From positions 2,400,001 to 2,464,000 of the forward strand of contig CBDCXR010000004.1 in assembly GCA_965223845.1 (NCBI GenBank): a stretch of DNA of 64,000 nt, given 5' to 3'. Under the pieces are notes generated by a model. The model was not told the DNA's origin. It did no database searches and saw nothing but the letters and a program-made list of their open reading frames with translations. Source of the stretch: Planctomycetota bacterium (lineage in GTDB: Bacteria > Planctomycetota > UBA8108 > SXIK01). The position numbers and the translations under genes are program-made. Positions within the stretch are counted from its first letter, which is position 1, and every line of letters starts with the position of its first letter. Shown here piece after piece: positions 46,862 through 61,500 of this stretch.

Positions 46862-47043
46862 CTAGCCCGCATTTCTCACCAGATTCGGTGAGCGAAGCGG
46901 CGAGACGGCGTAAGACGGGAAGGTGGGGACGCACCGACCGGAGGTGTGCTCCTAGCACAGTGAGGATCGAGGTGTTGACACATCCGATGCGCAGTTCTCG
47001 TCTTACGGCGCGGCAGTAGAACCTGGTGAGAAATGCGGGCTAG
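46862..47043. mobile_element. MITE-like palindromic element, copy 2
   Basis: Perfect 21-bp terminal inverted repeats CTAGCCCGCATTTCTCACCAG / CTGGTGAGAAATGCGGGCTAG; no ORF. Confidence 0.82.
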
Positions 47044-50000
47044 CGCCCGTCCCAGACGACGTCCGACGTCTGACCGGCGGACACCTCGACGTCCTCTTCG
47101 AGGATGGTCTCGGGCTCCCCCACCTCCTCGAGCGACATGAGCCCCGCGTTGGGCCCGAGCGCCATCCGTTTCCCCGGCCGCATCACCTGACGATTCACTC
47201 GAACGCGGTAGGTCCCCGGCTCGAGACTCTCGAACTCGAACCGATCGCTATTGACGAACGAGATCATTCGCGTGTTCGGATCCGGCTGACCATCGCGGAG
47301 CCGCACGGCCTCAACCCGGAAGTTCAGCGTGTCTTTCTTCTCGAGCTTCACGCTCGCGCGCGAGAGATTCGTGTTGACGCGTCCCTCGATGCGGCCCACC
47401 TCGCGCATGCGAAGCTCGATGTGAGCGGAGCGGTCGACGACGATCGGCGCGGGCTTTTCAACCAGCGCCCAGAGCGCGTCCCTCGCCCTCACTTTGTGCT
47501 CACCCGGCGTGAGTCCTTCGAGCCGAAACTCGCCGGTTTCGCTGCTCGTCGCGGTCGCGGAGTGGTAGAACTCGAACGACCCCGGCTCGGGCGCGTCTGT
47601 GGTGAGTGCCGCCCGAACGTGGACACCGGGGATCGGTTTCCCCGCTTCGGTGACAACTCTTCCGGTGATCGTCGCGCCCGGATCGAGCGCGAGGTCCAGC
47701 TCCTTGGCCTCGCCGGCGTCGAGCGTGAGCTCCCGTCGGTAAGGACGGAATCCGTCCGCGAGGACCTGGATTTCGTAGCGCCGCGCCGTGAGACCGTCGT
47801 AGCTGTACCGTCCGGCGGAATCGGCGAACCGGAGTGAGCCGACCGAGCCCGCACGGTAGTTGGTCATGCCCGACTCGCGTTGGATGCGCTTTCGCCTTTC
47901 GACGTCGACGAGCGTGATGCCGAACTCTCGGACGGGCTCGCCCGTACGCAGGTTCGTCGCGCGTCCCCAGAGAACGGCGAAACGCTCGAGCACGATGTCG
48001 TCCAAGGGCTCGCCCGCGGTCACGGCGTCGATGCTCCTAGCTTCGTAGCCGCGCCGCCGAGCGACGATGAGATACTCACCGTCTCCGAGGTCGCGGAGCT
48101 CGAACCGACCGTCCTCCCCCGTATGCGTCCACGACTCCCCCTTCGCCGTGAGCAGAGACATGCGGTGCCCGAACTCGTCGTCCGAATACCGACGTCCAGA
48201 CGCCGAATCGACGGAGGAAGCCCGGGCCGCTACCTGCACTCCCGCGAGCGCGCGCCCTTCTTGGTCGACGACTCGCCCTTCGAGCGTTTTCCCGGCCTCG
48301 AGCACGAAGTCTCGGTTGGGCTCGACGGCGACCTCGATGGTTTCGGAGATGCGAGCGAAGCCCGGCGCGGATACCGTGATCGGCACGACCGCCCGCGGGA
48401 GCCGACGGAACCGGTAGCGCCCCGCCGCGCCCGAAAACGTCGCGCGAACGCTCGCGCGCTCGAGACCCGCGCGCTCCGCCTCGCCGTATTCGCCGTCGAG
48501 CGCAATCCGCGCTCCGGCGATGGGCTCACCTTCGGCGTCGAGCACTTTCCCGGAGAGCTCGAGTCCACGATCGAGCTCGACGACGAGAGGCGAGCCTTCA
48601 CTCTGGTGGTCGGTCCAGCGAATCGGACCGGTTCGAACGGGCGCGAACGACTCGTGCGTCACGACCACGTGGACTTCGCCGAATGAACGCCCCTCTCGTG
48701 AAGCAACCGAGTGTCGGCTGAGCCCCTCCTCGTCCGTCGACAAGCGCCGCGAGAGGATCACTTCGTCGTACCAGTCGCCGATGCCCTCGACTTCGAGCCT
48801 CACGCGAGCGCGCGGCACGGGCTCGCCATCGGTCGTCCTCGCGAGCACGAAGAGGGTCGACGGACGAGGAAAGCGAAACTCGACCTCGGAGCGCTTCCCG
48901 CCGTCCGGAGCCAGCGTCACGAGCTCCGAGTTGTGTCCGATCTCCGGATGCTCGGCGTAGATTCGCAGTCGACCACCGAGGACGCGTTCGATGGGAATGC
49001 CGGCGAGCTCGAACAAGCCGTTCTCATCCGTCGTCGTCTCTCGCGGGACGTCCTGTCGAACCTTGATCACCGCACCCGCGATGGGCTCTCCGTCGGGTTC
49101 GAACACCACGCGACCAGCAACCGAGACTCCTTCGCGGAGACGCACGTCGACCGCCGATGAACCGGCGGCGACCCCTGGGAGCGTCGCATCCACGTAACGT
49201 TCGTGACGGATCTCGAGTGTCCACTCACCCTCGCTCACCGGCTCGAGAATGAACGTACCGTCGTCTCCAGTGCGCGTCTCGACCAGCGGATCCGCAGTGT
49301 CCCTCGATCTGAATCCACCGTTCACCTCGAGTCGGTTCCAGTCGATCGCCACCTCGGCGTCCGCGATCGGCGCGCCGTCGGCATCCACGACTCGGCCTGA
49401 GATCTCCAGAGGAACGGCGAGGACGATGTCGCCGAGTTCGGTGATCTCGCCGACTTCGACCTCGCGCGTGAAGAAAGGGAACGCGTCGGCACGGACAACG
49501 AGGTCGAACGCGCCCGTGCCCGCTCCGGTGAGCTCGAACGCGCCGGTCGCGTCGGTGCGCGTCTCGCCGCCCGCTTGATCGTTCGCGTCCGCGACGACGA
49601 TCTCGCTCGCGAAAAGGCGATGGACCTCACCGCGCGCGAGTCGAGCGAGTCGCACTGCCGCGTTCTCCACGGCTTCGCCCCGGGCGTCGACGACGCGGCC
49701 GCGGACGACTCCCGCGGGTTCCATTTCGATCCGTACGTCGTCGGTCCCGCTCTTCACGTCGCGGGTAAACGCCGAACGATAGCCGCGGAGCTCCGCTTCG
49801 AGGTCGTAGACGACGGGTTCGAGGGAATCGAAGTGAAACTTTCCGTTCTCGTCCGACTGGAGTTCGCGCGGCTCGAAGAGGATCCTCCCTCGGCGCCACT
49901 GGGAAACGAGCTCCCGAACGCGCTCGACGGAGTCCGTGTGCCACCCCCGAGCCGCGTAGGCGGTCAAACGTACGCCGGGAATGGGAGTACCGGTTCGATC

Positions 50001-51326
50001 CACCACACGACCGGCGATCTCCGCGGCCGGGGCGAGCTCGACGGTTGCCTCGGCGACGGCCGGCGGACGGATATCGACGAAGACGTCCGACCGGGGCAGG
50101 AAGCCCCCCTTCGATACGACGAGGCGATAGTCTCCGGCGGCCACGTCGGCGAACGCGAAGCTTCCGTCGACGTCCGATTCGACGCGGGGTGCGTCCGACA
50201 CGATCTGGACGAACTCTTCGCGCAGCTCGCGCGACCACGCGCCGAGTTCGCGCATCGTCTCGTTCGCCAACTCGGAATCGGGTCGCGCGAGATCGCTCTC
50301 AGCGATGAGACGAACGACGGCCTCCGGAATCCCGCGGCCGAGTCCGTCCGTCACTCTGCCCGTGAGATTCGGCGGCGGAACCAGGGTCGCGACCTCCGCG
50401 GCCGAGTCCGCCGCGGGCTCAACGGGCGTCGTCCTCGCGGCGCCACGCCCGAGATTCGAGACCTCGCCGGTCTCCTCGTCGTCGATTCGCTCGAGCGAAG
50501 TCGTCTCCGGTCCAGCTTCGTCGTCGATCCCGATAGCCCACCAACCGCCGAGGAGTATGGCGATCGAAGCCACCGCCGCGGCGACAACCTTCTTGCTACT
50601 CACGATGGATCCTCCGGTGATGATCGGTGTCCAAGCACTCGAGGTCACTCCCGCTCCCGCACCGGCACCTGCGGCCGTGAGGCCTTCGAGTGCGGTGCCG
50701 AGTGCGGTGATGCGGTCGAGTCCACTGACGACGGCCTCGGGAAGCGGCGGAATGACTCCGCCGTGGAGCCCACCCGCCGCTCCGAGGAGCGTCGCCGAGC
50801 CGATTCCGAGGCGCCGTTCGAGGAACGCGCGCGCCTTCCCGAGCCGGAAGCGGACCGCACGCTCGGTGATTCCGAGCGCGCTGGCCACTTCGCCGGGGGA
50901 GAGATCTGCGAGGTAGCGAAGCTCGATGGCCGCCCTTTGATCGCGCGGCAACTCGTCGAGCGCTCGGTCGAGGGCTTCGACGTCGTCCGCCGACTCGCCC
51001 GAACCTCGCAGTCTCTCGTGTAAACGCCGAACGTGCTCCTCCTCGCGGCGCCGACGACGTTCGCGCGAACGCCGCAAGCGCCCGACTCGGCCGAACACGC
51101 ACCACACCAAGTACCCACGAACCGACTCGACGTTCTCACCCCGCGGCGGTGAGACGAGGAGCTTCACGAAGACGTCCTGGCAGACGTCGGCGGCGTCCTC
51201 CGAGCTCGACGTCATCCGGTAGGCGACGCGCCAAACGAACTCGCGGTACTCGGCGACGACGCGCGCGAGGTTACGGCGGTTCGGCCGGCGGAGATACCGG
51301 GTGAAGGAGTCGGGCTTCGGGGACAT
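47040..51326 (-). CDS. ECF sigma-70 factor fused through a TM helix to tandem carboxypeptidase-regulatory-like domains
   Basis: Region 2 DAADVCQDVF, region 4 LPRDQRAAIELRY..EVASALG, a TM segment and repeated G.V.D..G.PI.GA units. Confidence 0.88.
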   Translation of the reverse strand: MSPKPDSFTRYLRRPNRRNLARVVAEYREFVWRVAYRMTSSSEDAADVCQDVFVKLLVSPPRGENVESVRGYLVWCVFGRVGRLRRSRERRRRREEEHVRRLHERLRGSGESADDVEALDRALDELPRDQRAAIELRYLADLSPGEVASALGITERAVRFRLGKARAFLERRLGIGSATLLGAAGGLHGGVIPPLPEAVVSGLDRITALGTALEGLTAAGAGAGAGVTSSAWTPIITGGSIVSSKKVVAAAVASIAILLGGWWAIGIDDEAGPETTSLERIDDEETGEVSNLGRGAARTTPVEPAADSAAEVATLVPPPNLTGRVTDGLGRGIPEAVVRLIAESDLARPDSELANETMRELGAWSRELREEFVQIVSDAPRVESDVDGSFAFADVAAGDYRLVVSKGGFLPRSDVFVDIRPPAVAEATVELAPAAEIAGRVVDRTGTPIPGVRLTAYAARGWHTDSVERVRELVSQWRRGRILFEPRELQSDENGKFHFDSLEPVVYDLEAELRGYRSAFTRDVKSGTDDVRIEMEPAGVVRGRVVDARGEAVENAAVRLARLARGEVHRLFASEIVVADANDQAGGETRTDATGAFELTGAGTGAFDLVVRADAFPFFTREVEVGEITELGDIVLAVPLEISGRVVDADGAPIADAEVAIDWNRLEVNGGFRSRDTADPLVETRTGDDGTFILEPVSEGEWTLEIRHERYVDATLPGVAAGSSAVDVRLREGVSVAGRVVFEPDGEPIAGAVIKVRQDVPRETTTDENGLFELAGIPIERVLGGRLRIYAEHPEIGHNSELVTLAPDGGKRSEVEFRFPRPSTLFVLARTTDGEPVPRARVRLEVEGIGDWYDEVILSRRLSTDEEGLSRHSVASREGRSFGEVHVVVTHESFAPVRTGPIRWTDHQSEGSPLVVELDRGLELSGKVLDAEGEPIAGARIALDGEYGEAERAGLERASVRATFSGAAGRYRFRRLPRAVVPITVSAPGFARISETIEVAVEPNRDFVLEAGKTLEGRVVDQEGRALAGVQVAARASSVDSASGRRYSDDEFGHRMSLLTAKGESWTHTGEDGRFELRDLGDGEYLIVARRRGYEARSIDAVTAGEPLDDIVLERFAVLWGRATNLRTGEPVREFGITLVDVERRKRIQRESGMTNYRAGSVGSLRFADSAGRYSYDGLTARRYEIQVLADGFRPYRRELTLDAGEAKELDLALDPGATITGRVVTEAGKPIPGVHVRAALTTDAPEPGSFEFYHSATATSSETGEFRLEGLTPGEHKVRARDALWALVEKPAPIVVDRSAHIELRMREVGRIEGRVNTNLSRASVKLEKKDTLNFRVEAVRLRDGQPDPNTRMISFVNSDRFEFESLEPGTYRVRVNRQVMRPGKRMALGPNAGLMSLEEVGEPETILEEDVEVSAGQTSDVVWDGR

Positions 51327-51556
51327 GCTCGGCGGGTGCGTTCGAGGATCCCAACGCGGTCGCCGACGCGATCGCGCGTGGAGCTACATGGTAGCGCGTC
51401 GACGCTCGGTCCGGTCCATCCTGGACGTCGACGCCCGGTGGGAGTACGGACCGAGATCGGTGCACGTTCATCGCTTGAGGATCCGCCGAGCAATCGGAGC
51501 GGAAACGAAAAATCGACCGGGTCGCACGACGGCAGCACCTCGAAGTCGCTCGTTCG

Positions 51557-54500
51557 CTAGTCCGACGAATTCTCGTTCGCGGTGTTTGCCACCGGGATCG
51601 CTCCGGGCGGGAGGAGATGTTTCTGCAGCTCGCACAGCCAATCGACCACGCCGCGCGAGGCCGATGCGTCCGCGTTGAACGTTCCCGCAACGCCCTCGTC
51701 GAACAGCAGGTCACCGATATGCTCACCGAGCGCGCGGTAAGCTTCGAACTGGTCTTCATCGAAGAGCTGGTCCGCAGTGCTCTGGTGCGGAAACTCCGGA
51801 TGGCGCTCGTGGTAGTCGAGAATCTGGACGTCCTCGTCGCCCGTGAGCGAGGCCTTCACGTAGAGGATGTAGCCGCGCGGGAGCTTCTTCCCATCGAGGT
51901 CCGTACCGTAGTCGACGACACCGAGAGCGAAATGAGCCCCGCTGTACTCGTCTCGCGAGCGGCGAATCGACGATAGATCGATCTCGGTCGAAACTCCGAG
52001 ATCGATCTTCGCGTGGCGAAGCGCTTTGACGATAGCCCGGCACGAGCGGTCCGCGTCGGCCTCGCCGTCGACGACGATCATGAGCTTGCAGCGGCGGCGA
52101 AGGAGCTCGTAGAGACCGAGATTCTCGATGTGCCCCCCGTCCGAGACGTAGACGAACGGCAGGTTCTCGTGCACCTGACCGCGCGCCTCGCAGAGCAGGT
52201 ACCGGGCGTCGGGTGAACTCGGACCGGTCACCTTCTCGTGCCCTGGATTCCGCAGCCAGTAACCGAGGCGAAGGTTCGCGAGGGTCGTGAGCGGAGTCAA
52301 AGCGGCGATCGTGAATCGCCCCATGAGCGATGACACCGCCGCACCCGAGGTCGCCATCGCCGTCGCGAGATCGAGCGCCGGATTGACGTTCGTCCACTGC
52401 GCGGTCGGCCTATACCCGACGATCGGGCTCCCCGAGTGATGCCGGCTGTAGACGAAAAAGTCCGCGCGCCGTCCGCGCAGATCGGGGTTCTTGCTCGCCG
52501 GAAGATTTACCGCCGAGTTGATCAAGTGGTACGGCGCCGCTCCTGACGCGAGGTCGGCGAGCTCGCGTCGACGAGCCTGTCCGTTCGCATCGACAATAAA
52601 CGTCGCGGCGAGACGCGCTCGGTAAAGGAAATGAAGTGCGGTCTCGTTGACGTCTACGGAGAAGAAGAGCGCGAGCGTCGAGAGGCCCGCAACGAGCGCG
52701 AGACCCGTCGGCGTCAACGGGACGACGGAACCGAGGTGGATGGCGATCGCTAGCGCCGCCGCCGGCGCCGCGACCACGAGCACGAACGCTCCCCAGACCT
52801 CGAGAGATTTCGACGCGCGCGGGACGGCCGAGATCGCTACGAGAATCGCCGCGAGAAGGGCCAGCCCTCCAGCGACCAACGCGGGGTGGAATCGAAGTGC
52901 CGCGTCGTCCGCACTCAGGAACTTCTCGAATAGAGCAAGCGCGAGATAGAAGAAGCCCGCGACGCCGATCGTGAGTCCTGCGCCTCGAACGAAGACCGAC
53001 ACCGTGCGCGTCCAGCGAGAAGGGTGTCGCCAGTTCATAACGAGAACCGCCGCGACCGCCGCCGCGATCGCAACGAGGCCCAAGAGAATCCACTGCCACG
53101 TGAAGTCTCCGGTCGGTCCGCCCGTTGCGGCGTCCGGTGCGCCCACGCCCTCCGCCGACGACGAAGAGTCCGTCGCGAGAAGATTCGCGAGAACGAGGAA
53201 CGACAATGCGACAGCGACCGGCAAGACCGTCCCCAGGAGAGCGATCACGACTCCCAGCGCTCCGCGACGACGGCGGAAGAGGAAGAGGACGCCCGCGACG
53301 ACGAGACTGGCGCCGTAGATTCCCCCGACGACGAGAAGGAGTCGCCCGTCGGTTTGCCAGTGGCTGAATGCAGCGCAGGCTAGCTCCGCAGCGCCGAGGA
53401 CGAGCGATGCGACCAGCGTCAGCGCCGCCGCTTTCCCGACCGACGACGTAAATCCCGCGCGCGGCGACGCACACCGAAGAAAGAGGTACAGAAACGGAAG
53501 CGAGACGACAGTCACTCCGATCCAGCCCCAGACCTGCCCCGGAAGAATCGACGAGTTCGCCTCGAGGATCGCTCCCACGTGTTCGGGAGCGATCGCTGCG
53601 ACGAGCGAGGCGATCGCGATCAAGCCCGCGAACAGAACGGCGGTGTTGATGACGATCCCGTAGGCGATCGCCGCCGCCGCGACGGCCTTGCCGACGAGAT
53701 CGTCGACGCGAAGAAATCGCGCACCGTTTCGAACCGCGCGTCCGGCAACGGATTCGTCGCGGAGCTGCGTATCGACCGGTAGCGAAGGCGGCGGCGACGC
53801 CGTCGAGGCCGATTCGGAATCTCCCGCGCCCGACTCGTCACTCGGCGCCGTCTCCGGCGGGGATTCGCCTTCGGAAGACGACGCGGCGAGACACGAGCTG
53901 ATGAAGGCGCCCGTGTACCCTCCACCCGACACGGTCGAGAGGTAGTCGATGTCGCGAAACACCTTGTGCTTAACGAGCGACTGAACGAAGCCGAGCGAAA
54001 ACGTCGCCGAGCGGATGCCTCCGCCGGAGAGACTGAGCCCCGAGCGACCTTTCCGTTCGCCGCACTTCGAACCGACGAGTTTCCTTCGGCGCTCGATGTT
54101 CGCCGATTCGTCGGTGTAGATCTTCTCCCAGCCTTCGATGAGCGTCCGGCAGCTCGCAGCCGAGAGACTCCAGTCGTCGTCGACCGGATCCTTCCTCGGC
54201 TCGAAGCCCGTCTCCGTGCCGCGGATGTGGTTGTCTTCGGCGAGCTCCGCGAGGACGGTCATAAACTCGCGCACGCTCTCTTGAACGCCGACGAGCTCCG
54301 AACGGAACTTCCGGCAATCATCGTCCGATTTGAACGCGCCGGCGACGAGCTTACCGTGCCAGTTCGCGGTAAACGGACGCAGTCGACGATTGAGAAGAAT
54401 GGTGCTCAGCGTCGCGAAGTGCCACGCCTTGCGGCCCTTGTCCCTCGTCAGCTTCCGAACGAGATCGAAAAGCGAGAAAACGCTCTTCAGTGCTGTCGCT

Positions 54501-54724
54501 TCATCGCCGGAACGCGGGTGGAGCGGCTGAGTGGTGATCCGCGTGCGGAGCTCCGTGTAGAGATCCCACGCTGCCTCGCCGTCCTCCTTGCTCGGCTGCC
54601 ACGGCGCCTCCGCGAGATGGGCCAGCGGCGAGTCGCCCGTCGTCGCGTCTTCGCCGAGCACGCGCTCGAGCCTCGATTTCCACGTGCCCGCTGACGTCGT
54701 CTCTTCGTTCCCCGCTTCGACCAT
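51557..54724 (-). CDS. Patatin/cPLA2-like phospholipase with a multi-TM insertion and an uncharacterised N-terminal helical domain
   Basis: LSLSGGGIRSA (oxyanion loop), YLSTVSGG (nucleophile Ser), SDGGHIENLG (catalytic Asp) and FPHQST.DQ.F; about 10 hydrophobic segments; GGAGG RBS before ATG 54724. Confidence 0.88.
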   Translation of the reverse strand: MVEAGNEETTSAGTWKSRLERVLGEDATTGDSPLAHLAEAPWQPSKEDGEAAWDLYTELRTRITTQPLHPRSGDEATALKSVFSLFDLVRKLTRDKGRKAWHFATLSTILLNRRLRPFTANWHGKLVAGAFKSDDDCRKFRSELVGVQESVREFMTVLAELAEDNHIRGTETGFEPRKDPVDDDWSLSAASCRTLIEGWEKIYTDESANIERRRKLVGSKCGERKGRSGLSLSGGGIRSATFSLGFVQSLVKHKVFRDIDYLSTVSGGGYTGAFISSCLAASSSEGESPPETAPSDESGAGDSESASTASPPPSLPVDTQLRDESVAGRAVRNGARFLRVDDLVGKAVAAAAIAYGIVINTAVLFAGLIAIASLVAAIAPEHVGAILEANSSILPGQVWGWIGVTVVSLPFLYLFLRCASPRAGFTSSVGKAAALTLVASLVLGAAELACAAFSHWQTDGRLLLVVGGIYGASLVVAGVLFLFRRRRGALGVVIALLGTVLPVAVALSFLVLANLLATDSSSSAEGVGAPDAATGGPTGDFTWQWILLGLVAIAAAVAAVLVMNWRHPSRWTRTVSVFVRGAGLTIGVAGFFYLALALFEKFLSADDAALRFHPALVAGGLALLAAILVAISAVPRASKSLEVWGAFVLVVAAPAAALAIAIHLGSVVPLTPTGLALVAGLSTLALFFSVDVNETALHFLYRARLAATFIVDANGQARRRELADLASGAAPYHLINSAVNLPASKNPDLRGRRADFFVYSRHHSGSPIVGYRPTAQWTNVNPALDLATAMATSGAAVSSLMGRFTIAALTPLTTLANLRLGYWLRNPGHEKVTGPSSPDARYLLCEARGQVHENLPFVYVSDGGHIENLGLYELLRRRCKLMIVVDGEADADRSCRAIVKALRHAKIDLGVSTEIDLSSIRRSRDEYSGAHFALGVVDYGTDLDGKKLPRGYILYVKASLTGDEDVQILDYHERHPEFPHQSTADQLFDEDQFEAYRALGEHIGDLLFDEGVAGTFNADASASRGVVDWLCELQKHLLPPGAIPVANTANENSSD

Positions 54725-54768
54725 CGGCCCCTCCGTCGGCTCGCTCGCTCCCGCTTTGACGTGACGGC

Positions 54769-54873
54769 ATCTTCTTCTGTCCACGAAACACTGTCAATCG
54801 AGGCGAGACGTTCGTACTCGTGCGGGCTCCGTGATCGACCGGCGTTGACATCGAATCACGAGAGGACGACACT
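54769..54873. promoter_or_regulatory. Putative back-to-back sigma70 promoters
   Basis: TTGACA on the minus strand (54792-54797) with GAAGAT 17 nt downstream; TTGACA on the plus strand (54845-54850) with GACACT 17 nt downstream. Confidence 0.45.
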
Positions 54874-54979
54874 GAGACCCAACGGTAACGATCGTGGAAC
54901 GGGCGGCTGTGGTCTCGCGCGACGCCCGCCGTCCAGTCGTGCGCCTTACGATCGAGCGTCTCGTCTGGGAGTCGACGTA

Positions 54980-55507
54980 ATGCCTCTCAAGCTCAGCTCC
55001 TTCAGCATCAATCTTCCGTTCGGAATCGGAGGGATGGACGTCATCGTCTCCGAAGCCCAAGCGAACGCGGCATGGGCGCTCTACGTCGAGCTCGCGACGC
55101 GCATCGCAACCGAAAAGCTCGAGCCTGGGCAGGGTCTCGTCCGTGAAGCCTTGACCTCGATCTACAAGCTCTTCGACATCATCCGAGGCGTGCTCAAAGA
55201 CCAGGGCCCGGGTGTCGCGGCCGGACCGAACTCGGTCGGGCCGATCGCGATCGAAGTGCTCAATCGCGGGCTCCGTCCGTTTCTGGTCCGCTGGCACACG
55301 AGCTTCAGCGAATTCGAGCGAGCGGAGACGAAGCGGCAGCGCGTCGAATTCGGCGCGGACGCTCCGGTGGTAATCGAGGACCGCGATTGGCCGGAGCGCG
55401 ACGCGTTTTACGAGGCGCTCGAGGAGAATCGTCTGGCTCTCAAGCAGTACGTCGACGCGCTCGGAGCGATCGCCGGCGTCGCGCAATCGGAGAGTGACGG
55501 TCGCTGA
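54980..55507 (+). CDS. Small helical protein homologous to the N-terminal domain of the neighbouring patatin
   Basis: ATG with a GGGAG RBS; AAW.LY.EL.TRI and LNR.LRPF...WH motifs shared with the patatin N-terminus. Confidence 0.85.
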   Translation: MPLKLSSFSINLPFGIGGMDVIVSEAQANAAWALYVELATRIATEKLEPGQGLVREALTSIYKLFDIIRGVLKDQGPGVAAGPNSVGPIAIEVLNRGLRPFLVRWHTSFSEFERAETKRQRVEFGADAPVVIEDRDWPERDAFYEALEENRLALKQYVDALGAIAGVAQSESDGR

Positions 55508-55537
55508 CGTCGGCCGCCTAGGGCGTGAAGGGACGCG

Positions 55538-57622
55538 GTGAGCGGAACCTCGATGACTCGTCTTCCGTTTCGGATCCAGGTCCTCCACCACCCGCAGTCC
55601 GATGCGGGCGCGCGATTCGCGCGAGCGCTATTCGATCGGTTCTCCCTCTCGCGCGGACCGCGGATTCCGCTCGTCTACGGGAGCGAGCAACCGAACGGCG
55701 GGCCGCCCGATCGACTCGAGCTCGACGCGGCGGAGAAATCGGTCGTCGTCGTCCTCGCCGACAAACGCATGGCGCGCCGTGTCGCGGGTGGCAGCGGCCC
55801 AGCGTGGGCGAAGTTTCTGATCGAGTCGCTCGCGCTCGTCCCGCCGGGCTCTCCCGATCACTGTGTTCTTCCCGTGGCGCTCGACGTCGGAGCGTTCGAC
55901 CTCGGATCCGAGCTCGAAGAGACGAGCTTCGTCCGCTTGGACGCGATCAAGGACGAAGAGAAGGAAGCGGAGCTCGAGTATCGAGTCGCGGTCAACAGCC
56001 TCGAAATCTTGGGGTTTCGAGTCCCAGACAAGTCGACGGTGACGAGCGATCGACCGCGTCCGCCGGTCAACTTCTTCCTCAGCCACGCGAAGCAGGACCT
56101 TCCCGCCCCGGGGGAAGACGGTCCCGTCGGCGCAATCCTCAAGCACTTCGCCGACGGTCGTGTCGATAGTTGGTACGACGCGAAAGACATTCGCGCGGGG
56201 GAAAACTTCGCCGCCCGCATCGAGAGTGGAGTCGATCGCGCCTCGGCGCTGATCGCGGTGATCACCGATTCCTTCGCCTCGCGCGAGTGGTGCCGGAAGG
56301 AGATCCTCTTCGCGAAGACCCGCTGCGGACCGGTGGTCGTCGTCGACGCCGTTGAGGCGGGCGAATCGCGCGCGTTTCCCTACATCGGAAACGCACCGAC
56401 CATCCGTTGGCGACCGGGCCCCTACGCAGCGCGAGACGTCGTCCTCGCCGCCGTGCGGGAGGCGCTCAAGTTCGAACATCACCTGGCGACGCTGCGCGCG
56501 AGAGAGAACGAGTCGACGAAGGTGCTTCCGAGCGCACCGGAGCTCATTTCCATCGCGGGGCTCGACGCAGCGGTTCGTCGCATCGTCTATCCCGACCCTC
56601 CCCTCGGCCGCGAGGAGCTCGAGCTCCTCGGGAATGCACGCGGCGACCTCGAGTTCACGACCCCGCTCTCGGAGCTCGCGTCGCACCGTCCGCACTCCGG
56701 GACGCGTCCGCATCGTCTCGGACTCTCGATCTCGGGGAGTCAAGACATCCGGGCGTACGGCGTCGGCCCCGAGCACATGGCCGCGTTCGCCGACGACCTC
56801 GCCCTCTTCTTTCTCCTCGCCGGCTCGCAGCTCGTCTACGGCGGCAATCTGTCCCACGGTGGCGGCGACGGGGACGAGGAGAATTTCGTGACGAGGCTCT
56901 TCGGCGCGGTGCGCAGTTACTCCCCGCTCGCGAAGGATCTCGGTCTCGAAGATCGGGCGGGCGTGTATCCACTCGTCAACTACGCGCCGTGGCCGCTTCA
57001 CCACGCCTTCTCCGACGAGCAGTACGATCAGTTCGGGAAGCTCGCGGGTCTCGAAGAGCTCGAGCGACCCCACTCGCTCGGCGTCGACGAGGGGGAGCTC
57101 GGCGTGAAGGACGGGGAGTTCTTCATCGCCGACACTCCGGCCCGGCGATTCGCCTGGGCGCGGTCGCTCACGGAGCTCCGCACGAGGCTCGTCGCAGAGA
57201 CCGACTCCCGCGTCGTCCTCGGCGGGAAGACGAAGGGGTTCTTCGGCGTGTACCCCGGAGTTCTCGAGGAGGCGGTTCTCACCCTCGAGTCGCAGGATCC
57301 GAAGCCACTCTTCGTCGTCGGAGCCTTCGGCGGCGCGGGACGGATCGTCGTCGACATGCTTCGCGGCGTCGACCGCGAGGAACTCACGACCGAGTGGGCG
57401 GAGCAGAATATCGACGACTACGACGCGGTCGTCGACCTCTACGCCCGCGCCGGAATCCCGTTTCGAACGCCGGAGTCCATCGCGGATTCGCTCCGGGCGA
57501 AGCGCGCTCTCGGTTTCGCCGGTGCGCTGCGGAACGGACTGAGCGACGAGGAGAACGAAGAGCTCTTCGACGGGACGGATCCACGGCGACTCGTGGAGCT
57601 CGTGCTCAGGGCTCGCGAATAA
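55538..57622 (+). CDS. TIR domain protein with a C-terminal SLOG-like domain
   Basis: TIR FFLSHAKQD..SWYD..SREWCRKE (catalytic-position Glu); YPDPPLG; SLOG-like LGLSIS..LVYGG..RVVLGGK..PGVLEEA..GAFGGAG. Start at 55538 or 55553. Confidence 0.85.
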   Translation: MSGTSMTRLPFRIQVLHHPQSDAGARFARALFDRFSLSRGPRIPLVYGSEQPNGGPPDRLELDAAEKSVVVVLADKRMARRVAGGSGPAWAKFLIESLALVPPGSPDHCVLPVALDVGAFDLGSELEETSFVRLDAIKDEEKEAELEYRVAVNSLEILGFRVPDKSTVTSDRPRPPVNFFLSHAKQDLPAPGEDGPVGAILKHFADGRVDSWYDAKDIRAGENFAARIESGVDRASALIAVITDSFASREWCRKEILFAKTRCGPVVVVDAVEAGESRAFPYIGNAPTIRWRPGPYAARDVVLAAVREALKFEHHLATLRARENESTKVLPSAPELISIAGLDAAVRRIVYPDPPLGREELELLGNARGDLEFTTPLSELASHRPHSGTRPHRLGLSISGSQDIRAYGVGPEHMAAFADDLALFFLLAGSQLVYGGNLSHGGGDGDEENFVTRLFGAVRSYSPLAKDLGLEDRAGVYPLVNYAPWPLHHAFSDEQYDQFGKLAGLEELERPHSLGVDEGELGVKDGEFFIADTPARRFAWARSLTELRTRLVAETDSRVVLGGKTKGFFGVYPGVLEEAVLTLESQDPKPLFVVGAFGGAGRIVVDMLRGVDREELTTEWAEQNIDDYDAVVDLYARAGIPFRTPESIADSLRAKRALGFAGALRNGLSDEENEELFDGTDPRRLVELVLRARE

Positions 57623-57921
57623 TCCGCGCCGCTTGCCCCGTTTCAACTACACGATCTCGGCGATCGAAGAGCCTCCCTGCGCGCCACCGAGTCGACAAGT
57701 CGTTTCGGAGGCAGCACTTATCGCCTTGACAGCCCGGTCTTAATACGAGCACACTGGGCGCGTCGTCAGAACGCAGCGAAGGTCCGAATCGGTCGGACCC
57801 CGGGACAAGTGGACGCCTGTCGAATCGAACACTCGGTTTTCTTGTGTTCCTCCGAACAGACGACAACTGCGCGCGCAGGTTCGGGTGGGCAGTCGACGGG
57901 ACGGAGCAGTGAGGAACTCAC

Positions 57922-58314
57922 GTGTACATCGTCAACGCGAGTCAGGCGCAGATTGAGTACGATCTGTCGTTTTCGGGACAGTATTCCGGGACGCTCGACC
58001 CGGGCGAGGCGACGCAGTATCCCTCGGGGTTCATACCCTCGGGGGAGTCGGGGACGATCACGGTAAGCGGGTACAACAACGTCACCGTGACGGACGACGA
58101 AACGGTCGAGTACAAAGACAACCAAACCGTGACGGAGTCGACGGCTAGTCCGACGCTGTCGAACTGGTGTGAGTTCGAGTGGCAAAACGGGGCTTGGGAG
58201 CCGACGGGCATGAATCAGTGCGGCACGAATAAGGTCTGTCCGACGGTGGAGGAAGTAAACGCCAGCAAAGGTCCTGGGACGGACGGCCAGCAAATCTACG
58301 AGCAGTGCGAGTGA
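57922..58314 (+). CDS. Small acidic hypothetical protein with a C-terminal 4-Cys region
   Basis: GTG start with a GAGGA RBS and a composition unlike shadow ORFs. Confidence 0.65.
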   Translation: MYIVNASQAQIEYDLSFSGQYSGTLDPGEATQYPSGFIPSGESGTITVSGYNNVTVTDDETVEYKDNQTVTESTASPTLSNWCEFEWQNGAWEPTGMNQCGTNKVCPTVEEVNASKGPGTDGQQIYEQCE

Positions 58315-58593: not shown

Positions 58594-61500
58594 GTGAGTC
58601 CCGATCCCCTCGAGCGCCTCCGCGGTCAAATCAACGAGGAACTGGCTCGGCTCTGCGACGAACACCCGGAACGGAGCGGGGAGTTCACGACATTCGGGCA
58701 CGGCGTCGTCGCAATCCTCGACCGGCTCGCAGATTCTCTCGCCGGTGATGTAGACCGCACGGTATCGCTCGCGCCGGCAGACGCGGCCGCCCTTGATACG
58801 ATTTCAACTCCGGCGGGCGCCGGCTCTTACGAGGAACGGAGCGAGCTCGGACGTGGGGGGATGGGCGTGGTCCTCGAAGTCTGGGATCAGCGCATCCAGC
58901 GACCGCTCGCCATGAAGGTTCTCCTCAACGAGGGCGGCGCGGTGTCCGGATCGAACACGACGAGCGGCGTCGTCGCGCGGTTTCTCCGAGAGGCGCGGAT
59001 CACGGGCCAGCTCAGTCACCCGGGGATCGTGCCCGTTCACGAGATCGGCAAGGATCCCGCCGGTCGAGTGTACTTCACCATGCAGGTGGTTGCAGGTAAG
59101 AGCCTCAAGGAGGAACTGACCGACGCGCGTAGCGAATCCGAGACGTCCGCTCCGACCCGATTTCTCGGCGTCCTCGTTAGAGTGTGCGAGACCTTGTCGT
59201 TCGCCCACTCCCGCGGGGTCATCCATCGCGATCTCAAGCCGGCGAATATCATGGTGGGTCGCTTTGGCGAGGTGTACCTCATGGATTGGGGGCTCGCGAA
59301 GGTCATCCGCGAAACGGATGAGCTCTTCGGCGTCACCGAACTAGACCCAGGTTCTGGCGCGGCGTCCGAATCATCGGCGGTGGAAATGACCATCGACGGC
59401 GCGGTCATCGGAACTCCGATGTACATGCCCCCCGAGCAAGCGATGGGTCACATCGACGTCTTGGACGAGCGTTCGGACGTCTATTCTCTCGGCGCCATTC
59501 TCTACGAGTTGATCGCCGAGCGCGCGCCGTATCGCGACCAGGAGGGTTTGAGCAGCCCGATGGAAATCGTGGATGCGGTGCGAACTGGCCCGCCGACCGC
59601 CCTCCATCGTGTTCGGGCGAACACACCTCCTGAACTCCTGGCCATTTGCGAGAAGGCGATGGCCCGAGGCCCGGATGACCGCTATCAGTCCGCAGAGGAG
59701 ATGCGTGAGGATCTCCGTGCGTTTCTCGACAACCGAGTCGTTGAGGCGTACCGGACGGGAGCGCTCGTCGAGCTTCGGAAGTGGATCGCTCGCAATCGCA
59801 GCGAAGCCGCCGCGATCGGAGCCGCAGCGGCCATCGCAATCGCGGCGTTTGTGTCCGTAGCGTGGGTGCAGTCTCGCCGGGCCACGGATCTCGAGGAGTA
59901 TTCTCGTGGCGTCGAGGAAGCCCGCGGCCGCACGGAGCAGGCCCTCCGCGAGGAGGAAGCCGCCCATCGGCGTTCTCAGGGATTGTATCTCGCCGCTCAG
60001 TCGACTCGCGTCGAATCGGAGAATCCCGGTCTCGCGCTTCGACTCGCGCTGGAGTCGCACCGGGAACTCCCCAGCGTGTTCGCGAACAGCTCCATTCTCC
60101 GGTCACTGCGGGTATCGCATGAGATTTCGGACTCAGCATTTGGTCTAGATCCTAAGGGCTCGCCGCCTCAACTGAGTCCCCGAGGCGATCGATTCGCGTA
60201 CGCGCGAACGGATGGGGCGGTCGTCGTCGCGGATTTCGAGTCCGGCGCTACAGTGTCTCTGCTGGTCGACCAAGGACGACGACTGGATCAGCTCACGTTT
60301 CACCCTGACGGACAACGGATCGCGACGTCGTCCTCCGATGGGACTGCGTGCGTTTGGGACGCAGAATCTGGACGTCTCCTCACGCGCTTCACGGGTCACT
60401 TAGACGATGGCGACGAACCCTTTGTCGCGTCCATTGCGTTTAGCCCGGATGGCTCGCAGGCAGTTTCCGCGGGTCGCGGCGTCGCACGAATTTGGCGACC
60501 GGATACCGGCGAGGAAATACGAAAACTCCGCGGTCATGACGCGGCCGAATTGATACACGGCGCGGTCTACAGTCCAGATGGGTCGTTGATCGTGACGCAC
60601 TCGCACGATCGAACGGCCCGAATCTACAATACCGCGGTGGTCGATCTGGGCGCGGTCATCGCGAGGCACGAGGGGTGGATCAGCACTGCTCTGTTCGATC
60701 CGACCGGACGCTTCGTCTTAACGCTAGACGACGAACGGAATCGAAAGCCGACGCCCTCAATGCGCCGAATTCTTCGTGTCTGGAACGTATTGGAAGGGCG
60801 TGAGGAAGAACCCCGCCGACACGAGGAAAAGATCGTCGGCGCGTGCTTCACTCCCGACGGACGCAAGATCATCAGCGCGACGTCGGATGGAATCTTTATC
60901 TGGGACACCGATTCCGGCGAGTGCACGACTGTCAATCCGCTCGGAGGAGGAATTCCGTCCTGTATCGCGATTCGAGGCGACGGCGCGCAGCTCCTCGAGG
61001 GTCGATCCGATGGCACGGTTCGGATCTGGGACTTAGAGTCGATTGCCGTCGCCCGCGTGCTGCGCGCGCACGATTCGCGCATAACGTCGGCGTTGTTCAC
61101 TCGTGACGGACGCGGAGTCTTGACGAGCTCGTTCGATGGAACCGTGCGCGCTTGGCGCACAAACCGTCATCACGAGCTTAGCGCCACGCGCGTCGGAGGC
61201 GAGCCGAGGTTTGCCGAGGTCAGCGCGGACGGGAGGTTGATGGTCGCGGCCGTGCTCAACGCCCGATCTGCTACCGTCTCGTCGGTTGGCGACCCCCGCC
61301 CCTCGATAGTGCTTGATCACGCCGCGAACATCGCGGGGGTCGAGCTGCGTGCTGAACAGAACACTGTCGTTACCTGGGACAAGGAGAAGACAGCACGGGT
61401 ATGGGATATAGAGAGCGGGCGTCTTCGTTCGACGATCGGCCCGGTATCAACTCGGAGCGTGAGTCGAGACGCTCGTTTTTTGATGGGAATCGGTTCCGAT

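What the first reader, a model, noticed from the sequence alone, without database searches (positions are those of the whole stretch)
54240..55480. Same uncharacterised helical domain present twice: on the patatin N-terminus and as a stand-alone gene
Seen: patatin AAWDLYTELRTRITTQPLHPRSGDEATALKSVFSLFDLVR...LLNRRLRPFTANWH aligns with small-protein AAWALYVELATRIATEKLEPGQGLVREALTSIYKLFDIIR...VLNRGLRPFLVRWH, and each has a matching terminal helix. The copies are diverged, so the paralogy is old. Known: bacterial conflict systems often couple components through homotypic effector-associated or death-like domains. Inference: a new adaptor or nucleotide-sensor domain, where the free copy recruits, nucleates or inhibits the phospholipase.
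Basis: partly seen in the sequence, partly recalled or inferred. Interest (0 to 1): 0.82.

Follow-up and report, generated by a model that had tools for sequence, protein, structure and literature searches.

The report
Unnamed TIR-partner domain, free and patatin-fused
A small helical domain with no family name occurs once on its own and once at the front of a membrane phospholipase, on either side of a TIR-SLOG gene; across bacteria this domain nearly always sits beside TIR immune-signalling genes, so it is probably the receiver module of an undescribed Thoeris-like defence system.

Summary
The patatin N-terminus and the neighbouring 175-aa protein share one domain ("DOM"): BLASTP 40% identity over 83 aa, E 3e-15; profile-profile 99.7%, E 1e-25, 136 columns including the last helix. 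DOM folds as a beta-hairpin plus four long helices (pLDDT 90.6). It matches nothing in Pfam, NCBIfam, PADLOC or PDB.

It is a large family: 1800 clusters at E<=1e-3. The homotypic reading is weak. None of 80 free-copy loci has this patatin, and 1 of 14 DOM-patatin loci has a second DOM.

The conserved partner is a TIR protein. A TIR ORF lies within 400 nt in 56 of 80 free-copy loci. TIR is present in 10 of 14 DOM-patatin loci against 3 of 66 patatins of the same family without a DOM hit.

DOM is also fused to TM helices, TIR, metallophosphoesterase, HTH and a STAND NTPase.

My reading: a Thoeris-like system in which TIR-SLOG makes a signal and DOM receives it, switching on the phospholipase. 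Mechanism confidence is about 0.5. It is a new variant of a known kind.

The parts
51557..54724 (-). Patatin-like membrane phospholipase with N-terminal DOM (1055 aa from the ATG at 54724; the longest ORF reaches 54784)
   Evidence: ORF; database gene call of 1055 aa (P0127); 29 of 35 homologues carry PF01734; residues 225-380 scanned alone hit PF01734 at E 2.7e-7, 31.4 bits, above the 27.7 cut-off.
54227..54640 (-). DOM copy 1: the shared beta-hairpin/four-helix domain on the patatin N-terminus (residues ~49-186 of the 1075-aa ORF)
   Evidence: hhalign 99.7%, 136 columns; BLASTP E 3e-15; found in the own-genome search at 69.9 bits.
53918..54028 (-). Patatin N-lobe motifs SGGGIRS (54008-54028) and TVSGGG (53918-53935)
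   Evidence: Positions; these columns are invariant in 35 homologues. Their reading as oxyanion hole and nucleophile serine is recalled family knowledge.
52640..53696 (-). Hydrophobic insert between the two patatin lobes, about 11 TM-like windows (residues 363-698)
   Evidence: Crude Kyte-Doolittle scan.
52121..52141 (-). DGGHIEN motif in the patatin C-lobe
   Evidence: Position; nearly invariant in 35 homologues. Its reading as the catalytic aspartate is recalled.
54725..54979 (.). Divergent intergenic region between the patatin gene and the free-DOM/TIR-SLOG operon
   Evidence: Sequence read; no consensus promoter found there.
54980..55507 (+). DOM copy 2: the stand-alone 175-aa protein
   Evidence: 221 near-length homologues, all unnamed; AF2 model pLDDT 90.6, pTM 0.83.
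55538..57622 (+). TIR-SLOG protein (694 aa), 30 nt downstream of the free DOM: unknown N-domain (1-170), TIR, SLOG cluster 2
   Evidence: PF13676 E 4.7e-10 (residues 179-261) and PF18163 E 4e-58 (residues 392-676).
56072..56608 (+). TIR domain region; the conserved WCRKEIL glutamate (E255) lies at 56288-56308
   Evidence: E255 is invariant in 8 orthologues; positions. Its role as the catalytic Glu is recalled.
56711..57565 (+). SLOG cluster 2 domain
   Evidence: PF18163, residues 392-676.

Best explanation
The shared sequence is an unnamed domain of about 150 aa (here 'DOM': a beta-hairpin followed by four long helices) that marks the partner proteins of bacterial TIR-domain proteins. I read the window locus as a Thoeris-like TIR signalling system. 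The TIR-SLOG protein is the generator: the TIR cleaves NAD+ into a signal, and the SLOG binds or processes it. Two proteins carry the receiver domain, the free DOM in the same operon and, divergently transcribed, DOM fused to a polytopic patatin-like phospholipase. Binding of the TIR output to DOM, most likely an NAD-derived nucleotide, would switch on the phospholipase, which attacks the membrane in an abortive-infection type of outcome. The free DOM would act in parallel on the same signal, either as a second output or as a buffer that sets the threshold. Shown here: the homology, the fold class, the absence of any family assignment, the statistical coupling of DOM to TIR, and the fusion repertoire. 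Inferred: defence function, signal binding, activation of the lipase, and the role of the free copy.
For: 1. Coupling of free DOM to TIR.
- In 80 free-DOM loci from 80 species genomes, a TIR ORF lies within 400 nt in 56 and somewhere in the locus in 71 (in-session TIR HMM).
- 44 of these are co-directional with a gap of <=150 nt.
- Pfam confirms independently: TIR_2 in 34 of the 39 downstream neighbours and in 15 of the 27 upstream or divergent neighbours that I submitted.
- No other neighbour family recurs, apart from antisense shadow ORFs.
- In an evenly drawn sample of 401 Pseudomonadota genomes, 6 new genomes have DOM and 4 of those 6 have TIR or TIR-SLOG within 1.5 kb.
- RefSeq annotation of two plasmids names the next gene a TIR protein.

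2. DOM is what links the patatin to TIR.
- Within one patatin family, 10 of 14 loci whose patatin has DOM hold a TIR gene, against 3 of 66 without a DOM hit (Fisher p 1.5e-7).
- All 10 TIR calls were confirmed by Pfam, and 4 of the 10 pass PF08937 (ThsB_TIR) strongly, with a fifth (L115) at the cut-off. These are small TIR ORFs of 126-193 aa, which is the Thoeris layout of a TIR gene plus a sensor-toxin effector.
- L088 repeats the window's divergent TIR-SLOG / DOM-patatin pair without a free DOM. L131 has SLOG, DOM and patatin in one open frame next to a TIR gene.

3. The fusion repertoire is typical of a receiver module.
- Of the 150 best representatives, 87 are stand-alone, about 37 have N-terminal TM-like segments (single, x2 or x4 DOM), and 3 are fused to TIR.
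- Other fusions: Metallophos, Metallophos+SLOG, and a BTAD-STAND NTPase; Xre-type HTH in 6 of 147.

4. Conserved polar residues. Arg, His, Asn, Ser and Trp columns (TR, S, R, N..RP, WH) are invariant or nearly so in the free, patatin-borne, tandem and mixed alignments.

5. The enzymes look intact. The TIR glutamate E255 is invariant and the patatin Ser and Asp motifs are invariant.

6. Published logic. Thoeris effectors pair a signal-binding domain with a toxic domain. Small proteins next to TIR, with or without TM helices (ThsG/DUF6650), respond to 2'cADPR, and several effector types can share one TIR operon (Yirmiya et al. 2025 preprint; I read sections 5, 7 and 8 and passages).
Against: - No binding, signal or phenotype was measured.
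- Most free-DOM partners are large TIR-X proteins (WD40, TPR, GUN4, FGE-sulfatase, SLOG). In such proteins the TIR may be an NAD-depleting effector rather than a signal maker, and the cited survey set comparable TIRs aside.
- A free domain with no obvious toxic part is an odd effector.
- L131 and P0305 combine DOM with SLOG, an established cADPR-isomer binder in ThsA, so SLOG rather than DOM could be the sensor and DOM a transducer.
- The window's surroundings are not an evident defence island: ECF sigma fusion, SDR, kinase-WD40, glycosyltransferase.
- No sequence link to the one characterised analogue, DUF6650.
- The TIR HMM was built in session. Its hits were checked by Pfam on 10 of 10 patatin-locus cases and through the tallies above, but not one by one.
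- Flanks of the DOM-patatin loci are longer on average (11.2 kb against 6.6 kb), which inflates the contrast somewhat.
Confidence: 0.5

Rival explanations
1. DOM is a protein-protein module that binds the TIR domain itself. Free DOM would be a co-operonic regulator (inhibitor, antitoxin-like partner or assembly cofactor) of a TIR NADase. On the patatin, the same module would tether or gate the lipase on TIR assemblies.
For: Gene order and spacing resemble small-regulator/toxin pairs: DOM lies directly upstream and co-directional in 34 of 80 loci, often with overlapping stop and start. DOM and TIR occur in one polypeptide in both orders (P0182, P0238). HTH-DOM fusions (6 of 147) fit an autoregulating antitoxin design. 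Many partner TIRs belong to large repeat or STAND proteins in which the TIR is usually an effector.
Against: Strongly invariant Arg/His/Asn/Trp columns across all contexts are more typical of a ligand site than of an adaptor surface that must follow very diverse TIRs. TM-DOM and DOM-enzyme architectures look like effectors, not regulators. Small ThsB-type TIRs next to DOM-patatin match signal-producing TIRs.
Confidence: 0.25
2. One reading: a homotypic adaptor, like Death-fold or effector-associated domains. The free copy pairs with the patatin's copy to recruit, nucleate or inhibit the phospholipase.
For: Both copies lie within 340 nt of each other and are the only two in the genome. Natural tandem DOMx2 and DOMx4 proteins suggest the domain works in multiples.
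Against: The pairing is not conserved: 0 of 80 free-DOM loci hold this patatin (one, L007, has a second DOM in another long ORF) and 1 of 14 DOM-patatin loci has a second DOM. The two copies belong to separate old clades and are 40% identical. The tandem-protein model does not place its two DOMs confidently (pTM 0.51). No Pfam family of any kind matched either protein at E<=1.
Confidence: 0.12
3. The similarity reflects a housekeeping or structural helical domain with no role in conflict, and the TIR neighbourhood is incidental.
For: The window's wider neighbourhood is not a recognisable defence island. The fold is a generic helical bundle.
Against: TIR adjacency recurs across cyanobacteria, Chloroflexota, Planctomycetota, Actinomycetota and Pseudomonadota. 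Its contrast with DOM-less patatins has p 1.5e-7.
Confidence: 0.03

Closest known systems
Type VI Thoeris: TIR (ThsB) + ThsG/DUF6650 (PF20355), Yirmiya et al. 2025 preprint (10.64898/2025.12.03.692087; sections 5, 7, 8 and passages read)
   Same: A small protein of about 150-180 aa and no known function sits beside a TIR gene. Some members carry N-terminal TM helices and others none. How the TM-less form acts is equally unclear there.
   Different: PF20355 finds nothing in the window's genome or in 5 other DOM-bearing genomes at E<=10. hhalign of the DOM profile against two genuine DUF6650 proteins gives probability below 1%. The only hint is a language-model score of 0.83, below that tool's 0.9 line. 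DOM is also fused to enzymes (patatin, metallophosphoesterase), which that text does not describe for ThsG.
Type I Thoeris effector ThsA (SIR2-SLOG)
   Same: Two-part logic of a signal-binding domain plus a toxic domain, encoded next to a TIR gene; a SLOG domain is also present in this locus.
   Different: Here SLOG is fused to the TIR, not to the toxic domain, and is of Pfam 'cluster 2' type. The toxic domain is a membrane patatin, and the domain in the sensor position is DOM.
CBASS patatin effector CapV
   Same: A patatin-like phospholipase as the membrane-damaging output of a nucleotide signalling system (abstract of PMC12480259 seen in the listing).
   Different: I did not look for a CD-NTase here. 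The partner is a TIR, and this patatin has an N-terminal DOM and a polytopic hydrophobic insert of about 340 aa between its lobes.
Effector-associated domains / Death-like adaptors of NTP-dependent conflict systems (Kaur et al., eLife 2020, PMC7159879; passages read)
   Same: Small helical domains found at the N-termini of effectors and again on a second protein in conflict loci of multicellular bacteria; GUN4, FGS, WD40 and TPR partners recur there as well.
   Different: Their hallmark, the same domain on both partners of a locus, is met in only 1 of 14 and 0 of 80 loci here. No Pfam family of any kind matched. DOM's constant partner is TIR, not an NTPase.

Membership tests
Thoeris-type TIR signalling defence | A TIR-domain protein with the catalytic glutamate | tested here: met
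   PF13676 E 4.7e-10; E255 in the W-C-x-x-E helix is invariant in 8 orthologues. That this Glu is the catalytic one is recalled.
Thoeris-type TIR signalling defence | An adjacent effector gene conserved with the TIR gene | tested here: met
   56 of 80 free-DOM loci and 7 of 14 DOM-patatin loci have TIR within 400 nt and 1.5 kb respectively; Pfam confirmation.
Thoeris-type TIR signalling defence | The TIR makes an ADPR-derived signal that activates the effector | not testable with these tools
   Needs LC-MS and binding assays.
Thoeris-type TIR signalling defence | Protection against phage | not testable with these tools
   Needs plaque assays. The neighbourhood is not a clear defence island.
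DUF6650 / ThsG (PF20355) | Match to the Pfam model at or above its cut-off | tested here: not met
   0 hits at E<=1 for the protein; 0 of 1 and 0 of 5 DOM-bearing genomes at E<=10; 0 of 147 representatives.
DUF6650 / ThsG (PF20355) | Remote homology by profile comparison | tested here: inconclusive
   hhalign of A1 against two single DUF6650 sequences gives probability 0.5-0.65%, but only single sequences were available. Language-model similarity was 0.83.
Homotypic effector-associated / Death-like adaptors | The same domain is present on two different proteins of the same locus as a rule | tested here: not met
   1 of 14 DOM-patatin loci and 1 of 80 free-DOM loci (L007) hold a second DOM-bearing ORF; none of the 80 holds this patatin.
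Homotypic effector-associated / Death-like adaptors | Death-like or other known adaptor fold | tested here: inconclusive
   Best structural matches are generic four-helix bundles, Z up to 8.6, below the level that tool calls meaningful for helical bundles.
Patatin-like phospholipase (PF01734) | Pfam match plus Gly-rich, serine and aspartate motifs | tested here: met
   The full-length protein gave no hit, but residues 225-380 hit PF01734 at 31.4 bits, above the 27.7 cut-off. 29 of 35 homologues carry PF01734. SGGGxRS, TVSGGG and DGGHxEN are invariant or nearly so.
SLOG cluster 2 (PF18163) | Pfam match | tested here: met
   E 4e-58, 197.5 bits, nearly full model length.

The most novel reading that the evidence does not exclude
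DOM is the receptor domain of a large, so far undescribed branch of TIR signalling immunity (at least 1800 sequence clusters, and commoner than ThsG in the one sample compared). It would recognise a TIR-made nucleotide, possibly a new one shaped by the fused SLOG. The same receptor has been plugged onto a membrane phospholipase, TM pore-formers, a phosphoesterase, a transcription factor and TIR itself. In this genome, two receivers, one free and one lipase-bound, read a single TIR-SLOG generator.
Probability: 0.35. Interest if true: 0.8.

Novelty: new variant of a known kind. Interest (0 to 1): 0.64.

Why it matters
TIR signalling is shared by bacterial, plant and animal immunity, and each new receiver domain has so far revealed a new signal or a new way of killing the cell. 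This is an unnamed, well-folded, widespread domain whose only constant companion is TIR and which is wired to several different outputs. That makes it a direct handle on signals not yet identified: purify DOM and see what it binds. It would also explain what the many 'hypothetical protein + TIR' gene pairs of cyanobacteria, Chloroflexota, actinomycetes and planctomycetes are. It gives a testable role to a family of polytopic patatin phospholipases, and a family model for DOM would improve defence-system annotation.

Tried and rejected
- Complex prediction of the window's TIR region (residues 165-360, 8-row alignment) with the free DOM (53-row alignment): score 0.00 against a mark of 0.32, verdict 'no answer'. 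It counts neither for nor against binding.
- The single complex job went on DOM-TIR, so free DOM with the patatin N-domain, and DOM homo-oligomers, were not folded.
- Fold searches of the DOM model: Foldseek against PDB gave nothing at E<=1e-3. VIA-align against 48,161 chains gave a best Z of 8.6, all generic helical bundles such as FAT/p130Cas and designed proteins. No family is named or excluded by this.
- PDB by sequence: DOM profile best E 0.17 (EsxB, not credible); patatin-family profile one hit at E 0.0087.
- Tandem DOMx2 protein (P0124, 17-row alignment): pLDDT 80 but pTM 0.51, so how two DOMs pack is not learned.
- DUF6650 lead: rejected at the sequence level. A scan of 401 cyanobacterial genomes for PF20355 gave only one sub-threshold hit; 401 Pseudomonadota gave two true members.
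- The word-indexed 'longer' search for fusions found only 3 proteins and missed the window's own patatin, so it says little.
- Viral contigs: 5 pattern matches, none confirmed. I did not search the GenBank phage collection.
- Promoter/terminator scan of 51300-58000: nothing useful.
- Literature:
  - Full-text searches were 'SLOG, TIR, patatin, SLATT', 'SLOG, TPALS, LSDAT, SMODS' and 'Thoeris, patatin'.
  - I read passages of PMC7159879 and PMC13069673, and sections and passages of the Yirmiya preprint. None describes this domain in the text I could see.
  - Burroughs et al. 2015 (NAR), which defined the SLOG clusters, is not held, so a description there cannot be excluded.
  - Figure 1C and Tables S1-S3 of the Yirmiya preprint (29 putative effector types, including 'phospholipases' and 'domains of unknown function') could not be seen and may already contain DOM or DOM-patatin.


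Full report
**What is there.**
Three genes make up the locus.
- A patatin-like protein lies on the minus strand at 51557-54724/54784.
- Divergent from it is a 175-aa protein at 54980-55507.
- A 694-aa protein follows 30 nt downstream, at 55538-57622.

Pfam reads the last protein as TIR (PF13676, E 4.7e-10, residues 179-261) plus SLOG cluster 2 (PF18163, E 4e-58, residues 392-676), behind an unassigned N-terminal 170 residues.

The full-length patatin and the small protein match nothing in Pfam, NCBIfam or PADLOC at E<=1. The patatin identity rests on three other results:
- 29 of 35 homologues carry PF01734.
- Residues 225-380 scanned alone hit PF01734 above threshold (31.4 bits).
- The SGGGxRS, TVSGGG and DGGHxEN motifs are invariant.

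Between its two lobes the patatin has about 11 TM-like hydrophobic windows (residues 363-698, crude scan).

**The observation.**
The two proteins share 33 of 83 residues (40%), E 3e-15. Aligning 53 homologues of the small protein (A1) against 35 homologues of the patatin (A5) gives 99.7% probability, E 1.1e-25, over 136 columns. That span covers the whole small protein from its hairpin to its last helix.

The start at 54980 is supported by an identical 175-aa gene call and by homologues of 165-177 aa that align from residue 1. The genome (7.93 Mb, 4 contigs) has only these two copies.

The paralogy is old. In a quick ML tree of 74 domain segments, all 35 patatin-borne copies fall on one side of a branch (SH-aLRT 97), and the window's free copy lies among free copies (the careful search did not finish, and one long branch, P0159, is unsure).

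**What the domain looks like.**
AlphaFold2 with the 53-row alignment gives pLDDT 90.6 and pTM 0.83. The model has a beta-hairpin (residues 7-22) and four helices (25-39, 54-75, 86-124, 140-165). I call it DOM.

No solved structure resembles it beyond the generic four-helix bundle: Foldseek gives nothing at E<=1e-3 and VIA-align gives a best Z of 8.6.

The columns conserved in every context are polar or aromatic: W32, E37, T40-R41, S60, R69, N95, R99-P100 and W105-H106 in small-protein numbering. In the patatin branch the R55-E56 pair is not kept.

**How large the family is.**
A profile search of 1.84 billion cluster representatives finds 1800 clusters at E<=1e-3, 1060 at 1e-10 and 188 at 1e-30. 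By my crude classification, the 150 best break down as follows:
- 87 are stand-alone.
- About 37 have TM-like segments before one, two or four DOMs.
- 3 are fused to TIR.
- 19 have other extensions.
- 4 were counted as tandem without TM; two of those look like split hits.

Pfam on selected long members shows DOM-TIR, TIR-DOM, DOM-Metallophos, DOM-Metallophos-SLOG and BTAD-STAND-NTPase...DOM. Six of 147 carry an Xre-type HTH.

In an evenly drawn sample of 401 Pseudomonadota genomes, 7 have DOM (6 besides the seed genome). Two of the same 401 have DUF6650.

**The conserved partner is TIR, not patatin.**
I fetched 80 loci around free-DOM genes; these were the best 80 of 294 confirmed in 185,579 species genomes.
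- None contains a relative of the window's patatin (phmmer with its two lobes).
- One (L007) has a second DOM in a long ORF.
- Pfam finds TIR_2 in 34 of the 39 co-directional downstream neighbours that I submitted, fused to SLOG cluster 2 (4), GUN4 (10), FGE-sulfatase (4), TPR (4) or WD40 (3).
- Pfam finds TIR_2 in 15 of the 27 upstream or divergent neighbours that I submitted.

With a TIR HMM iterated in session, 56 of 80 loci have a TIR ORF within 400 nt and 71 of 80 have one somewhere in the locus; several of the rest are short contigs. The breakdown is:
- 34 downstream co-directional within 150 nt;
- 10 upstream co-directional within 150 nt;
- 7 adjacent on the other strand;
- 5 at 151-400 nt;
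- 15 farther away;
- 9 with none.

Clustering all neighbours within 4 kb shows no other recurrent family except antisense shadows of DOM itself.

Three further checks agree:
- Four of 6 new genomes from the even Pseudomonadota sample have TIR or TIR-SLOG within their 1.5-kb flanks.
- On two RefSeq plasmids, the gene after the DOM homologue is annotated as a TIR protein.
- A third plasmid (Ruegeria) shows only hypothetical proteins.

**The patatin side gives a built-in control.**
A metagenome scan with the patatin family returned 80 loci. In 14, the patatin ORF has DOM at its N-terminus. Ten of these 14 hold a TIR gene, 7 of them within 1.5 kb.

Of the 66 without a DOM hit in the patatin ORF, 3 hold a TIR (Fisher p 1.5e-7). 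Restricted to the 51 whose N-terminus is not cut by the contig end, the figure is 2 of 51 (p 3e-7).

Caveats:
- Mean flank is 11.2 kb against 6.6 kb.
- L140, whose DOM fragment lies in a separate short ORF (probably a frameshift), was counted in the DOM-less group.
- L090, one of the three TIR-positive DOM-less loci, has a truncated N-terminus.

All 10 TIR calls were confirmed by Pfam. Four of the 10 pass PF08937 (ThsB_TIR) strongly and a fifth (L115) sits at the cut-off; these TIR ORFs are 126-193 aa. One further call is TIR-nSTAND1.

Two loci are especially telling:
- L088 repeats the window's divergent TIR-SLOG / DOM-patatin pair with no free DOM.
- L131 has SLOG, DOM and patatin in one open frame directly after a TIR ORF.

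Only L093 has a second DOM. The window therefore combines two arrangements that usually occur separately.

**Mechanism.**
The layout is that of Thoeris. A TIR protein makes an ADPR-derived signal, and an effector pairs a signal-binding domain with a toxic one. Several effectors can share one TIR operon. One recently validated effector (ThsG/DUF6650, 2'cADPR) is itself a small protein of unknown fold that may or may not carry TM helices (Yirmiya et al. 2025 preprint; sections 5, 7 and 8 and passages read).

DOM occupies the sensor slot on the patatin and on the TM, phosphoesterase and HTH fusions. It keeps a set of invariant Arg/His/Asn/Trp residues in all of them.

I therefore favour DOM as the receiver of the TIR output, activating the membrane phospholipase here, at about 0.5. 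The free copy would respond to the same signal, as a parallel output or as a buffer; that part is inference.

The rivals are:
- direct binding and regulation of TIR by DOM (0.25), which fits the upstream, often overlapping gene order, the HTH fusions and the large TIR-X partners;
- an incidental helical domain (0.03).

The one complex prediction I could run (TIR region with free DOM) returned 'no answer' and is not evidence either way.

**Comparison with the known.**
Functionally the locus is closest to the Thoeris types with small or membrane effectors. Membership in DUF6650 was tested and not met at the Pfam level. Remote homology is unsupported but only weakly tested.

The hallmark of effector-associated or Death-like adaptors, the same domain on both partners of a locus, is not met as a rule.

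I found no description of DOM in the text I could search or read. Three sources could not be seen: the 2015 paper that defined the SLOG clusters, and the figure and the supplementary tables listing the 29 putative Thoeris effector types. The family may be listed in any of them under another label.

**Verdict.**
This is a new variant of a known kind (TIR signalling with an undescribed receiver module), with interest of about 0.64.

Noticed in passing
L131:7773-12532 (metagenome locus): A TIR ORF is followed by a single open frame holding SLOG, DOM and the patatin (1208 codons stop to stop). This is either a SLOG-DOM-patatin fusion or, with a frameshift, TIR-SLOG-DOM-patatin in one protein.
   Followed up: partly
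P0124, P0125, P0162, P0164, P0174 (proteins): These proteins have one or two N-terminal TM-like helices followed by two or four tandem DOMs. In a tree the first and second repeats of different proteins group with each other, so the duplication is old. Their gene neighbourhoods were not examined.
   Followed up: partly
6 of the 147 representatives in alignment A4: An Xre-type helix-turn-helix is fused to DOM, giving a possible signal-responsive or antitoxin-like regulator. I did not identify which six, or their contexts.
   Followed up: no
P0233, P0305: DOM is fused to a calcineurin-like phosphoesterase, in P0305 also to SLOG cluster 2, with three TM-like segments near residues 540-640.
   Followed up: no
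window 55538-56050 (+): The first ~170 residues of the TIR-SLOG protein are an unassigned domain conserved in orthologues from other phyla (phmmer hits in L001, L004, L005, L013, L024, L088 and L131).
   Followed up: no
L168:4158-8344 (Streptomyces cynarae plasmid NZ_CP106794.1): A NUDIX hydrolase gene lies directly upstream of the DOM + TIR pair. NUDIX enzymes act on ADP-ribose derivatives, so it may be a third component or a signal-clearing enzyme.
   Followed up: no
window 47040-51326 (-): A 1428-aa protein begins with an ECF-type sigma factor (regions 2 and 4) and continues with at least nine carboxypeptidase-regulatory-like repeats, an unusual sigma fusion.
   Followed up: no
window 58594-62772 (+): A 1392-aa Ser/Thr protein kinase is fused to long WD40 beta-propeller arrays, 1 kb downstream of the TIR-SLOG gene. 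A 130-aa ORF with no family lies between them at 57922-58314.
   Followed up: no
window 52500-53500: AT skew reaches +0.34 over the hydrophobic insert of the patatin gene. This is probably a codon-composition effect of the Ala/Val/Leu-rich segment on the minus strand.
   Followed up: no
L061, L078, L056 (cyanobacterial loci): Two or three DOM genes occur in one 20-kb stretch, with up to 7 TIR ORFs in L061 (a Calothrix plasmid). These are local arrays of DOM + TIR modules.
   Followed up: no
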